From Amoebophrya sp. A120 (taxonomy: Eukaryota; Protista; Dinoflagellata): a stretch of DNA of 64,000 nucleotides. The translations under genes and the position numbers were made by a program. The stretch covers positions 62,001-126,000 of the forward strand of contig CAJINV010000016.1 in assembly GCA_905178155.1 (NCBI GenBank). Reading direction: 5' to 3'. The notes beneath the pieces are model-generated. The model searched no databases. It saw only the letters and a program-made list of their open reading frames with translations, and was not told the origin of the DNA. This document shows, one piece after another, positions 24,386 to 43,130 of the stretch. Each line of letters opens with the position of its first letter. Within the stretch, counting starts at the first letter, position 1.

Positions 24386-27300
24386 TCACATCACCAACTG
24401 TGTATCGCCTGTCGCAACGCCAAAACCCGACGTCGTGTAAAAATTATTCATCCCGCCCCCTGGCGGCCCTCCATTCGGATTATTATTGTTGTTGTAGCCA
24501 CCTCCATTGTTCTCATCATTCCCGCCACCCCCTTCGCCGGTCGCCACTTTCGACGCCTCCCTTGACCTATCAAATGCAAAAGCGTCTGGGTCTGGAAGAT
24601 TGCCAGACTTGTCATGCATATTTTGAATGGCCCATGATGTCTGTGATGCATGCCCTAGCATCACAGATATTTAGAGGACTTTGATGCGATGCCTCTGCCG
24701 CATGAGAAATAATGCCCTCTCCGCGTAGCACAAACTGGAGTTCTCTTGCTGGTCATGCAATGCGAATTTTTTCAGAATCCAGGGACAGCATTATAAGTTT
24801 AGAACCTTCCAGACCCAGACATTTTTGCATTTGATACGACCCGGCCAATTTTCCTACTCGTTTCTTCATCACGTCGCGGAGCCAGTTTGCTTATGCATTG
24901 CAAAAGTATCATACTCGAATAAATGCATTACAAATTTTCCCAGCATGACAAATAAAATTTGTAATGCGTATTCACCTTTAAGAAGAATATTTGTAATGCA
25001 AGACTTGCATTTATTATACGAGTGCGATGCCTTTGCACAGGATATTGCTTCGATGAAGCCAATGTCGCCCTTTTCCATCTTGTGCTCCATGAGTTCGGGC
25101 ACGGTTATCTTTTTTCCCCTTAAGGAGTCGAGGTTTCGGTGCAGAGATGAAGTTGTAATGCTATAATTTCCAATTCCAGTTGTAGTTGTACCACTGCTAG
25201 AAGATGAACTCGACGACGTAGCTCCGCTTGCACCACCACCGCCTGTAGTTCTACCACTGTTCGGGAGATCGTCACCAAGTTCCAGCAATTCCTTTTCCCT
25301 CGTGACGTCAATCCCTTCCGTGAAAAACACCTTGTGTTCCAGCTGGTAGGACAACTCCTGAAACATTTTCACGATGTTCTGCTCCTTCTCGTGGTCGTTG
25401 TTCGTATTCTCCACGTTGAAAGCCAATAAACACAAATACAGGCAGTGCAAGCTGCTGTTCGTGCGGTCTTCGTGTACCGCCTGGAAAATGTCCGCGGGGA
25501 TCACTTTCTTCAACTCCTGGTAGAAATCCAGTCGCCCCCGGACCACGATCTCCTGAAACAGTGTCCGCCCCGATTTCGGGTCTCGGGTCAACAGGTGCGA
25601 CAGGCGGACGAACCCGGCGTCAATGTAGGTTTTCAACTTCGCTTGGAACAGGTTCTTCCTCGTCTCCTCCTTGTCGAACGAGTTGGAAGTCACCGCTTTT
25701 TTCATCCCCTTCATGCAGCTGTCGATCTTCATCCGTTGGAGCTTATTCGGCTCGTTTTGCGGTGGTATTTTGGTCCTGGGGTCGATGTTTCCGTCGGGGA
25801 AAATCGGGCCACCGGGATCATCGAGTATGTTGATGTCTGGTGCGGAGGATGCTGTGGTGTTTTGGGGGTTCTTGTTGGTCACGGAAGTTGTAGTGGCTTC
25901 AACAAGTTTCGCGAACCCCCCACTGGGGAAGTTGCTGCTGCTTGCCGCGGTACTATTGTTGAACGCCGAGCCAAAGCCGGCGGTGGAGAATGTATTGGTG
26001 GCTGCAAAGTTGTTGGCGTTCGCCGTTGTACCTGAAATCAAAATTTGGAGAAATACGGAATGTATGGTGACTGTAAGGAAGCATCGTCGAGGACGAAAAC
26101 TAAGCTCCAGAGATTCAATTTGTTATTCGATTCTACAATGTGCCACTTCTACTACTAGCATCAGCGTGAAAACTAAACGCTTCAAAGTAAAAAAATCCCA
26201 AATCGTACCTCCGCCAAAACCTGCTGGCTGCGCTCCATGCGGTCCCATTTGATTTTGCGATGCAATTGCGCTGTTGGGCGAGGGTAGCGGTGGGGGTGGC
26301 ATGGCAGGCTGCTGCTGCAGCTGTTGCTGCATCGTCATGAAGTTCGTCGTCCCCATTGGCTGCTGCATTTGCTGACTTTGTTGCGGAGGTTGCATCTGCA
26401 ACTGGTCATACGGGTTGGGATTTATCATGGTCCGTGGTCCGCCGCCAATGTTACCGGTCAACACACCTCGCGATTGCGGAGGCATCGCCTGACTAGACTG
26501 CGGCTGTAGTTGTGACATCGGAAATGGTTGCGAATTGACCATCGCCGCAAACGACCCCTGTGGCAGTTGTTGGGAAGGAGCAGGGGGCATGATTTGTGAG
26601 GAAGGAAACCCCGCAGCAAAATTCATATTCATCCCGCTGTTGTTGCTGAGACTTCCAAATCCGCCGATGGTTGAGCCAAATTGCTGTTGTGCTTGGGACT
26701 GACTGGGCATCGGCTGAAAATTTTGCTGAAAATCGTTGCTCTGCATTTGCGGGGCGGACTGGGAGGGGTTGAAAGGGGTGGTGGCGCCACCATAATTGCT
26801 GAAGCCTGCTGGCACCGCACTTTGTGAAGCCGGCGGCGCAGCTGCGAACTGTGACTGACTGTTTGGAGGTGGCATTGGAAGGCTCGAACCCATGTGCTGC
26901 GACGGCTGTAGCTGCAGAGGTTGTACTTGTTCTACTTGCGAAGCACCAAATGCAGACTGACTCGCAGGAGCTCCAAAAGCTGGCGCAGCACCGAATCCAG
27001 AACCGAATTGGCTACTTGTGCTTGTTCCAAACGCAGTTGCCCCAAACGCGGGCTGCCCGAATGCGGTTTGCGACGCAAACGCAGCGCCGGTGGCGAAAGC
27101 AGGGACTCCCGGGGCACCAGCAGCGAAATCAAACTGCGAGCTTGCGCTGGATCCTTGCGCGTTATTTCCGGATGTGTTCAGCATGCCAGACAGGAAAGCT
27201 TGCGGACCCGGACCCGGACCCTGACTGACAGGCGGTTGCATGGGCGGCTGAGGCTTTTGCTGCTGATGTTCCTGTTGTGGTTCCGGCGCTGCTCCTGCGT

Positions 27301-42300: not shown

Positions 42301-43130
42301 CGCTTCCCTCCGTGCTTCAATGCTTCTTTCACGTCAAACGGGTTGCGATCCTCCTTCAAATTTTTCGCCCGCATCGCTTCCAAAAAGTGCCGGATGTTCA
42401 AATTCGCGACGCGCCCTGGCAACCCAGGGTAGACCCAATTTGACCCGGGTTTCTGCGGGAGGGTGGGGAGATGCTGGATTTTCAGAAATTCAAACGTATC
42501 GTCGACGTCTTCGAAATTCAGCATGATAGGTTCTGCTTTTTTGTCGTTTTCTGGTTGCGTTGTGTTCGTCGTTGCGAGCGTGGTGGAAGTGGTCGACGAC
42601 GACGCCTTCAGCCTCGCAATCAAATTCGCCGTGCTGCTTGGATCTGCTTCGGTTTTAGCGAGGGTTCGTCTGATCACTTTGTTGAAATCTTGCACGAAGG
42701 TTGGCAGATTCTTGTCCTTCTGCGGAGTCCGAGTACGAGTAGTTCCACCTGGGCTTTTTCTGTCTTGTTCGAAGATTTCGCTGTCAACTTCCATGGCGTC
42801 TGGATCACGATCTGCATCCTCATCTTCGTCCTGTTCCTCCGCCGCCCCAAAAACGGACAGCTCCTTCGTCTGTGGGTCTAAAGTCAACGCCAAGTTGTTC
42901 TCGAGCATGGCCGTTCGAAATCTGGATCGGAGAGTCGACAAAGCGGTTGCGACGACCTTGTTCACCTCGGCGAGGGCTTGTTGGCTCAGGTTATTTGTGG
43001 GAGCAGCATTTGAGCTGCTGGAAGATGAGCTGCTGGCTGCACCACCGCCGGCATGTTGCTTCTCTTCCCGTTTCCGCAAAAGCTCGACGCTGAGCTCCAG
43101 CGCAGCTAGGAGCACGTCGTGGACCGGCAT
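24386..43130 (-). CDS. SBNO1: Strawberry notch (SBNO) family SF2 helicase-like protein fused to an ASCH domain and a long low-complexity FG/Q-rich tail, ~4,420 aa, 21 exons
   Basis: SBNO motifs in order: HPSPVSEP, LSSQQLETITYA, LLGDGTGCGKGR, HIWVS..DARRDLRDL, AFDEAHKAKNL, VVYASATAATE..NMGYMSRLGLWG, FWSFQQRFYK, LWSTGESR, LPPNALD..VAEISGR, ITEAGSTGISLH, IELPWGADKAIQQFGRIHRSNQ, FLNRLL, LDRGIPW. All 17 TIR introns, 2 GT-AG introns (41201-41344, 26032-26208) and the 1240-bp insert, removed by hand, give one open frame. Confidence 0.9.
24568..24836. mobile_element. TIR introner, family A
   Basis: TSD TGACC/CGACC. Confidence 0.92.
24892..25044. mobile_element. TIR introner, family B
   Basis: TSD TTGCT. 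Confidence 0.9.
30383..31671. other. GC-rich 1.19-kb insert flanked by a 49-bp duplication of coding sequence, interrupting the SBNO ORF
   Basis: 30383-30431 = 31623-31671 (2 mismatches), both encoding VKNQVEQTGED(Q/R)FGHQ. Confidence 0.85.
32110..32436 (-). other. ASCH (PUA-like) domain within the SBNO gene
   Basis: LRIQKNYLDLIKKGKKTVEGR (GxKxxExR signature)...VEVIERQEFPSFASYL...LPGCSSLSEGIKIYHSF...HGVVAF. Confidence 0.9.
32686..32836. mobile_element. TIR introner, family B
   Basis: TSD CCGTG; joins IGNT/DSQSN. Confidence 0.92.
33378..33529. mobile_element. TIR introner, family B
   Basis: TATGAACTGCAAAAGTATCGTACT perfect TIR, TSD TGTAG. Confidence 0.93.
34271..34584. mobile_element. TIR introner, family C
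   Basis: TSD GCATG. Confidence 0.93.
34857..35118. mobile_element. TIR introner, family A (reverse orientation)
   Basis: TSD CGTCT. Confidence 0.93.
35173..35373. mobile_element. TIR introner, family F
   Basis: TATGA..CAACTCC / GGAGTTG..TCATA, TSD TCCTC/CCCTC. Confidence 0.88.
35440..35746. mobile_element. TIR introner, family C
   Basis: TSD ATCTC. Confidence 0.93.
35793..35957. mobile_element. TIR introner, family B
   Basis: TSD GTACC. Confidence 0.92.
36580..36810. mobile_element. TIR introner, family F
   Basis: TSD TCCGA. Confidence 0.92.
37079..37383. mobile_element. TIR introner, family C variant
   Basis: TATGAAAGCCTCAG TIR, TSD TGCTG; splits the conserved AIQQFGR. Confidence 0.93.
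38485..38697. mobile_element. TIR introner, family G
   Basis: GAAAAAACTGTTTCACTGTG inverted, TSD CGCTA/CGTTA. Confidence 0.9.
38981..39259. mobile_element. TIR introner, family D
   Basis: AAAACGTACCCACACCAGAG / CTCTGGGGTGGGGACGTTTT, TSD AAATC. Confidence 0.92.
40305..40556. mobile_element. TIR introner, family A
   Basis: TSD CTGCA. Confidence 0.92.
40609..40763. mobile_element. TIR introner, family B
   Basis: TSD TGTAG. Confidence 0.9.
40926..41082. mobile_element. TIR introner, family B
   Basis: TSD CTGGA/CTGCA. Confidence 0.9.
41597..41860. mobile_element. TIR introner, family A
   Basis: TSD GGAGA. Confidence 0.9.

What the first reader, a model, noticed from the sequence alone, without database searches (positions are those of the whole stretch)
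24386..43130. Giant Strawberry-notch helicase fused in frame to an ASCH domain (~4,420 aa)
Seen: after the SBNO C-terminal motifs (CTH..C..C..G.R, HGAFLECW, LVGVQV) the frame continues through two introners into an intact ASCH domain (GKKTVEGR) and then ~2,000 further residues. Known: eukaryotic SBNO proteins are typically ~1,300-1,400 aa, and ASCH domains bind nucleic acid, with some acting as nucleases or N4-acylcytidine amidohydrolases. I do not know this architecture from elsewhere. Inference: a lineage-specific helicase coupled to a nucleic-acid-processing module. A role in the unusual RNA or chromatin biology of this genome is speculative. The fusion is invisible to ORF callers because 20 interruptions fragment it.
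Basis: partly seen in the sequence, partly recalled or inferred. Interest (0 to 1): 0.7.

Follow-up and report, generated by a model that had tools for sequence, protein, structure and literature searches.

The report
Giant Strawberry-notch helicase carrying ASCH domain
In a parasitic dinoflagellate, one 21-exon gene encodes a 4,409-residue Strawberry-notch helicase-family protein joined in frame to an intact ASCH domain that likely helps it grip, and might chemically modify, nucleic acid; we found this pairing in no other protein, although the same ASCH type is fused to other helicases in dinoflagellates.

Summary
Confirmed. Removing 20 introns at the joints seen in intron-free contigs gives one 4,409-aa frame from 43130 to 24386. 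One 14,252-nt contig carries the whole coding region, and a run with DNA-like contigs keeps the introns around the ASCH exon. The protein has an intact Strawberry-notch SF2 motor, a low-complexity linker, a PH0355-type ASCH domain (aa ~2353-2465; Z 18.4) with the Lys/Glu pair that tested relatives need for ac4C deacetylation, and a ~1,945-aa mostly low-complexity tail. It is identical to an unnamed public Amoebophrya A120 model, so it is not invisible to annotation. ASCH was absent from all 133 other Strawberry-notch homologues scanned, but the A25 orthologue is truncated. The same ASCH subtype sits on a degenerate Ski2/Brr2-like helicase in A120 (54% identical domain) and a RecD2-like helicase in Polarella, so it looks like a mobile helicase accessory. 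Most likely it is a tethered nucleic-acid grip, as TRIP4's ASCH is for ASCC3; an RNA ac4C eraser or a passenger domain are rivals. Conservation and function are untested. The scan had not noted this fusion elsewhere.

The parts
24386..43130 (-). Coding span, 21 exons, 13,230 nt spliced, 4,409 aa; identical to public protein P0121
43131..43402 (-). 5' untranslated stretch covered by the longest contig (272 nt)
   Evidence: X3 record 5 ends at 43402
41861..43130 (-). Exon 1, aa 1-423; the start and first residues resemble those of the A25 orthologue
39423..41972 (-). SBNO first RecA-like domain (AAA_34), aa ~387-906; Walker A at aa 479-490 and DEAH box at aa 774-777 intact; split by 5 introns
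36290..38479 (-). SBNO second RecA-like domain (Helicase_C_4), to aa ~1600; motif VI intact
34000..35990 (-). SBNO C-terminal alpha/beta region and Cys cluster, aa ~1700-1940
   Evidence: PF25373 weak; BLAST to SBNO homologues reaches aa 1936; motif alignment
33372..33528 (-). Intron 15, introner (152-nt element with terminal inverted repeats plus one 5-nt direct repeat); retention would end the protein at 2,121 aa, before ASCH
32837..33371 (-). Exon 16, low-complexity Ser/Gly/Ala linker (aa 2097-2274)
32681..32836 (-). Intron 16, introner (151 + 5 nt); retention would end the protein at 2,283 aa
32109..32447 (-). ASCH domain, PH0355/PF0455 type, aa ~2353-2465; G2371, K2373, E2376, R2378, Y2364 and Y2441 present
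30338..31616 (-). Intron 17, 1,279 nt, non-canonical; a ~1.18-kb repeat-like insert between two 56-nt copies of exon sequence (31671-31616 and 30431-30376, 93% alike); retention would end the protein at 2,638 aa
26205..30337 (-). Exon 18, aa 2630-4006, mostly low-complexity tail, no family match
25045..26027 (-). Exon 19; aa ~4090-4240 is richer in order-promoting residues and may be a helical domain, unassigned
23636..24385 (-). 3' untranslated stretch, ~750 nt inferred from the contig length

Best explanation
The gene is spliced into one reading frame for a 4,409-aa protein with an intact Strawberry-notch SF2 ATPase core and an ASCH domain that likely acts as a flexibly tethered nucleic-acid grip for a predicted nuclear motor. 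Shown: the frame, the helicase motifs, the ASCH fold by prediction, and its conserved pocket residues. Inferred from animal and plant SBNO: the motor works in the nucleus on chromatin or transcription complexes. Inferred from TRIP4-ASCC3: ASCH adds a second contact with DNA or RNA that improves loading or processivity. The domain was probably grafted from a mobile pool of PH0355-type ASCH domains that dinoflagellates have attached to several unrelated helicases and small DNA-metabolism modules. It keeps the Lys/Glu pair, so some deacetylase activity is not excluded.
For: Continuous spliced frame and single contigs across SBNO and ASCH in X1, X2 and X3; introns present in X5. Walker A, DEAH, SAT and motif VI match 8 aligned homologues. 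ASCH model pLDDT 93.5, Z 18.4 and rmsd 1.5 to PH0355. All 10 columns invariant across a 16-sequence alignment that includes it, among them K, E and R of the octapeptide. The domain is 54% identical to the ASCH of a second A120 giant protein that shares nothing else. That protein has an N-terminal Ski2/Brr2-like region (E 3.4e-6) and four Cys-rich, GRF-like zinc-finger patterns (the GRF label is recalled). Among the 150 best ASCH hits, 4 carry helicase parts (P0121, P0123, P0140, P0144), and 4 carry ExoX-like_C and 1 DUF5710 (109 of 150 scanned with Pfam, the other 41 are under 250 aa). Precedent: TRIP4's ASCH raises ASCC3's ssDNA affinity about tenfold and its unwinding 2.3-fold (PMC10076317, passages). 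SBNO1 needs its DExH glutamate for transcriptional activity (PMC5389439, passages).
Against: TRIP4's ASCH is a distant subtype (Z about 4-5 against our model), so the precedent is an analogy. Most of the 150 nearest ASCH proteins are stand-alone or GNAT-fused, not helicase-fused. A stand-alone archaeal ASCH domain showed no tRNA binding without its HTH (bioRxiv 2026.02.27.708502, passages). About 400 residues, many low-complexity, separate ASCH from the last SBNO-homologous residue. Conservation of the fusion in a second strain is not shown. SBNO helicase activity itself is unproven. Contigs do not phase single molecules, and all intron-free runs come from one study.
Confidence: 0.5

Rival explanations
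1. The ASCH domain is an active N4-acetylcytidine eraser, and the SBNO motor delivers it to or unwinds acetylated RNA, which would make a motor-coupled RNA de-modifying enzyme.
For: The octapeptide is of the Glu type, with K2373 and E2376. Lys and Glu are the essential pair for tRNA deacetylation in TthASCH, EOLA1 and TRIP4, and all 19 tested ASCH proteins removed ac4C from tRNA (bioRxiv 2026.02.27.708502, abstract, introduction and passages). The tyrosine nine residues before the Lys is kept, as in TthASCH. Six of the 109 scanned relatives are GNAT acetyltransferase-ASCH fusions, which would suit a writer-eraser pair. The fold matches YqfB at Z 11.
Against: 146 of 170 domains in this family have the same Glu motif, so it marks the family, not a special role here. 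The eraser claim rests on one preprint and partly on overexpression. Whether a PH0355 orthologue was among the tested proteins was not seen (supplement closed). tRNA is not a known SBNO substrate (recalled).
Confidence: 0.2
2. The ASCH domain is a recent passenger dropped into a disordered tail, perhaps by a mobile element, with no function tied to SBNO.
For: 0 of 133 other SBNO homologues have it. It lies in low-complexity sequence, and the gene has taken up 17 introners and a 1.18-kb insert. None of the 11 best ASCH hits, all looked up, is named as an A25 protein. A close ASCH sits inside the tandemly duplicated RecD2-like helicase protein P0140, which looks transposon-like.
Against: The two A120 copies are only 54% identical yet both keep the octapeptide and fold, while their flanks share nothing; this points to purifying selection. 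The frame stays open over 4,409 codons. Clustering at 50% identity could hide an A25 copy.
Confidence: 0.18
3. ASCH is a nuclease that cuts single-stranded RNA or DNA released by the motor, as ZmASCH does.
For: ZmASCH, also of the Glu type, is a single-stranded RNA nuclease (PMC5615036, search listing and abstract start; cited). Close relatives are fused to ExoX-like_C.
Against: ZmASCH is a different subtype (Z 9, 14-16% identity). No nuclease activity for the PH0355 type turned up in the papers read.
Confidence: 0.07
4. The long form is not the main product: read-through or assembly joins an SBNO mRNA to a separate downstream mRNA.
For: Contigs cannot prove a single molecule. In X1 and X2 the assembly breaks at intron 17, and a minor X1 contig (depth 21) holds 30313-30606 from inside that intron.
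Against: That break lies downstream of ASCH: SBNO and ASCH are on one unbranched contig in X1, X2 and X3. The spliced frame has no stop between them, and the SBNO exons have no stop of their own unless an intron is retained. At most, the last ~1,780 residues may be absent from a minor isoform.
Confidence: 0.05

Closest known systems
Strawberry notch family (Drosophila Sno, SBNO1/2, Arabidopsis FORGETTER1; PF13872, PF13871, PF25373)
   Same: Both RecA-like domains, all checked SF2 motifs and the C-terminal Cys cluster.
   Different: 4,409 aa against up to ~2,000 aa for the eukaryotic homologues listed; long low-complexity inserts; an ASCH domain seen in 0 of 133 other homologues.
PH0355/PF0455/PF0470-type ASCH proteins (PDB 2z0t, 1s04, 1xne)
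   Same: Sequence E 1.4e-15, predicted fold Z 18.4, Glu-type octapeptide.
   Different: Those are ~110-aa stand-alone archaeal proteins; here the domain is embedded in a giant eukaryotic helicase.
TRIP4 (ASC-1) ASCH acting on the ASCC3 Ski2-like helicase
   Same: An ASCH domain paired with an SF2 helicase; there it boosts DNA binding and unwinding (PMC10076317).
   Different: Separate proteins docked by a zinc finger, a different ASCH subtype (Z 4-5) and a different helicase family; here the link is covalent.
YqfB and related ac4C amidohydrolases / tRNA ac4C erasers
   Same: Shared fold (Z 11); catalytic Lys and Arg positions kept; Glu as in TthASCH.
   Different: YqfB has Thr at the Glu position; 19% identity; activity untested here.
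Sno-like ATPases in polyvalent proteins of phages and conjugative elements (PMC5512222)
   Same: Giant multi-domain proteins built around a Sno-like SWI2/SNF2-related ATPase; 12 such 3,192-6,065-aa proteins.
   Different: Their partners are methylases and LPD-type domains; none had this ASCH. This gene is an intron-rich nuclear gene in the dinoflagellate SBNO group.

Membership tests
Strawberry notch (SBNO) | AAA_34 and Helicase_C_4 domains above curated cut-offs | tested here: met
   259 and 225 bits against cut-offs of 27 and 30.5
Strawberry notch (SBNO) | Intact Walker A, DExH box, motif III and motif VI | tested here: met
   alignment with 8 homologues
Strawberry notch (SBNO) | C-terminal SBNO alpha/beta domain and Cys cluster | tested here: inconclusive
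   PF25373 at 20.8 bits on the exon, below the cut-off of 24; Cys cluster aligns with animal and plant homologues
Strawberry notch (SBNO) | Nuclear, ATPase-dependent transcription or chromatin role | not testable with these tools
   A basic cluster near aa 2004-2012 looks like a nuclear signal (recalled motif type)
ASCH superfamily, PH0355 type | PF04266 above cut-off and ASCH beta-barrel fold | tested here: met
   27.9 bits against 21.2; model pLDDT 93.5, Z 18.4 to 2z0t
ASCH superfamily, PH0355 type | Octapeptide with Gly, Lys, Glu/Thr/Ser and Arg | tested here: met
   G2371, K2373, E2376, R2378; motif definition
YqfB-type amidohydrolase | Thr in the octapeptide (Thr24) | tested here: not met
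   Glu at that position
Glu-type ASCH tRNA ac4C erasers | Essential Lys/Glu pair | tested here: met
   K2373 and E2376; requirement
Glu-type ASCH tRNA ac4C erasers | Measured deacetylase activity | not testable with these tools
   needs an assay
Amoebophrya introners | Terminal inverted repeats, short direct repeats at the borders, exact removal from transcripts | tested here: met
   17 of 20 introns have this build; removal; definition in PMC7789003
Helitron RepHel (for relative P0140 only) | HUH Rep domain fused to an SF1 Pif1-like helicase | tested here: inconclusive
   SF1B/RecD2-like helicase met; Rep region has no Pfam or PDB match; resemblance to Rep motifs is recalled only

The most novel reading that the evidence does not exclude
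PH0355-type ASCH is a mobile module that dinoflagellates have repeatedly grafted onto unrelated helicases (SBNO, Ski2-like, RecD2/Pif1-like), possibly carried by rolling-circle transposons, and the SBNO fusion is the first motor-coupled nuclear eraser or reader of an acetylated base.
Probability: 0.15. Interest if true: 0.75.

Novelty: new variant of a known kind. Interest (0 to 1): 0.44.

Why it matters
SBNO proteins have no defined nucleic-acid substrate, and the cellular role of ASCH domains is still debated. A natural fusion of the two gives a testable hint for both. Three unrelated helicase families carry the same ASCH subtype in dinoflagellates, which suggests a reusable helicase accessory. 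The ~120-residue domain is easy to express and assay. The weight is limited because the fusion is known from one strain and may be incidental.

Tried and rejected
The run index listed no holder on record as RNA; X1-X4 are treated as transcript-derived because they lack introns that X5 keeps. Raw-read runs X8 and X9 gave 0 laid reads, which is no test. Contig depth rises towards the 3' end, but the tool warns that depth cannot rank parts of a gene, so it was not used. The ASCH word search among 213-2,000-aa proteins found none of 230 candidates (weak). Metagenome scans for orthologous loci found none and one distant locus L001 without ASCH. Viral contigs had no confirmed match; phages none; plasmids three weak matches at 28-32% identity. 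Profile scans of genome and viral contigs could not run because the alignments were too diverse, so no named prokaryotic tips entered the tree. Tree: the two A120 ASCH domains were sisters at SH-aLRT 92 in the quick 170-row tree but only 87/65 in the careful 43-row subset, and the wider eukaryote-like group was weak (69/93); origin is unresolved. The C-terminal region aa ~4081-4334 gave a useless model (pLDDT 40) and weak ankyrin-like atlas leads with low recognition; aa 2001-2095 gave none. The Helitron identity of P0140 was not confirmed. A recalled spliced-leader motif matched no site near the ASCH exon in the DNA; this is uninformative, since the leader is added to RNA. No complex prediction was run, as no docking is claimed. 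Literature: searches listed no paper on an SBNO-ASCH or Helitron-ASCH fusion, judged by titles and abstract starts. A 2026 review of dinoflagellate RNA-binding proteins has 0 mentions of ASCH or SBNO. The one held supplement of the genome paper has 0 hits.
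Full report
Observation. The region is a minus-strand gene broken by short elements with terminal inverted repeats and 5-nt direct repeats, the build described for Amoebophrya introners (PMC7789003, passages). Four runs guessed to be RNA (two samples, one study) were laid on 24001-43900. Fifteen intron joints are listed, and contig record coordinates fix the other five. 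Run X3 has one 14,252-nt contig that covers the whole coding region; X1 and X2 each have an ~8.1-kb contig from the 5' end through ASCH. Joining the 21 exons gives one frame of 4,409 aa, 43130 to 24386; random phases would do this with probability 1.2e-7. Run X5 shows none of the three joints around the ASCH exon and its pieces cross the exon-intron borders, so the joints reflect splicing rather than an intron-free DNA copy. Of the 20 introns, 17 are introner-type, 2 are ordinary GT-AG and 1 is a 1,279-nt insert; 4 of 20 can be read as GT-AG. Limits: contigs do not phase single molecules, X5 may be the source of the window, and the public model may rest on the same RNA data.

Identity. The spliced protein is identical to P0121, which the look-up names as an unnamed Amoebophrya sp. 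A120 protein, CAD7969162.1. Pfam gives AAA_34, Helicase_C_4 and ASCH. Walker A, DEAH, SAT, motif VI and the Cys cluster align with 8 homologues. Homology to other SBNO proteins ends near aa 1936. The ASCH domain (aa ~2353-2465) is of the PH0355/PF0455 type by sequence (E 1.4e-15) and predicted fold (pLDDT 93.5; Z 18.4, rmsd 1.5). The ~1,945-aa tail is mostly low-complexity with no family match.

How rare. A profile built from 170 related ASCH domains found no ASCH in 133 of 133 other SBNO homologues: 120 of 276 hits from the 607-2,000-aa search and all 13 others from the 2,424-7,716-aa search. Lengths of 2,001-2,423 aa were not searched. The A25 orthologue P0001 (79% identical in the searched region) is partial and ends inside the helicase C domain, so it says nothing. 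Of the 150 listed best ASCH hits (of 1,327), only P0121 is an SBNO protein. Searches listed no paper on this architecture, by titles and abstract starts.

The wider pattern. The third-ranked ASCH hit, P0123, is a second A120 protein of 4,434 aa. Its ASCH is 54% identical and nothing else aligns. Its N-terminal part matches Brr2 (E 3.4e-6) with Walker motifs that look degenerate by eye, and it has four Cys-rich zinc-finger-like patterns. P0140 (Polarella glacialis) has this ASCH just before a RecD2-like SF1B helicase. P0144 (unnamed) has UvrD_C_2, ASCH and Josephin. Smaller relatives carry ExoX-like_C (4) or DUF5710 (1, Biecheleria), and 6 carry a GNAT acetyltransferase (109 of 150 scanned). 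Trees place the two A120 domains together with modest support (92 quick; 87/65 careful) near dinoflagellate and other eukaryote-like sequences; deeper origin is unresolved. P0140 resembles a Helitron RepHel by recalled motifs only, and this was not confirmed (background in PMC8788227 and PMC6213432, passages).

Mechanism. SBNO proteins are SF2 ATPases related to SWI2/SNF2 (PMC5512222, passages) whose DExH glutamate is needed for transcriptional activity, while helicase activity is unproven (PMC5389439, passages). The best precedent for ASCH beside a helicase is TRIP4, whose ASCH raises ASCC3's DNA affinity about tenfold and unwinding 2.3-fold (PMC10076317, passages). I therefore favour a tethered nucleic-acid grip (0.5). 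The domain keeps the Lys/Glu pair that Glu-type ASCH proteins need to strip ac4C from tRNA (bioRxiv 2026.02.27.708502; abstract, introduction and passages read, supplements closed), but lacks YqfB's Thr (PMC6972931, passages). An eraser role gets 0.2, a passenger domain 0.18, a nuclease 0.07 and a mis-joined transcript 0.05. Against the favoured reading: TRIP4's ASCH is a distant subtype, most relatives are not helicase-fused, and conservation beyond A120 is not shown.

Isoforms. Intron 17 is a ~1.18-kb repeat-like insert between two 56-nt copies of exon sequence. X5 shows related copies with many differences. A minor X1 contig holds its last ~270 nt, and all three frames there meet a stop, so a minor form ending near aa 2,640, or a separate downstream RNA, is possible. 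Either would leave SBNO and ASCH joined.

Verdict. A real, spliced, rare architecture made of two known families, already present as an unnamed public model, with a plausible but untested mechanism: a new variant of a known kind, interest 0.44.

Noticed in passing
window 30338-31616 (minus strand): A ~1.18-kb repeat-like insert flanked by a 56-nt duplication of exon sequence is spliced out at non-canonical ends using a 5-nt direct repeat. The cut also removes the second exon copy and about 13 further codons. Its left end resembles an introner end (14 of 20 bases), but no matching right end was found.
   Followed up: partly
window 44157-47969 (minus strand): Upstream neighbour: an inositol monophosphatase-family domain and an EcKL kinase-like domain fall in one stop-free frame of 1,180 codons once the introner at 46705-46436 is removed; not checked against transcripts.
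   Followed up: partly
protein P0123 (A120, 4,434 aa): Second giant A120 protein: degenerate Ski2/Brr2-like helicase region, four zinc-finger-like Cys patterns and a 54%-identical ASCH; Pfam sees only the ASCH.
   Followed up: partly
protein P0140 (Polarella glacialis) and P0144: ASCH next to a RecD2/Pif1-like helicase in a tandemly duplicated, transposon-like protein; P0144 adds a Josephin domain. Possibly an undescribed ASCH-bearing Helitron-like group.
   Followed up: partly
protein P0272 (2,424 aa, JGI/IMG): A Strawberry-notch protein fused to a complete eukaryotic topoisomerase I, seen twice at full length; could be a true fusion or an assembly chimera.
   Followed up: no
proteins P0154, P0172, P0191, P0219, P0230, P0267: GNAT acetyltransferase fused to PH0355-type ASCH, a possible acetyl writer-eraser pair.
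   Followed up: no
window 41082-40921 and 38697-38480: Two introners have a mismatch between their 5-nt direct repeats; for the second, the contig joint keeps the upstream copy.
   Followed up: partly
window 52985-54376 (minus strand): Leucine-rich-repeat protein exon.
   Followed up: no
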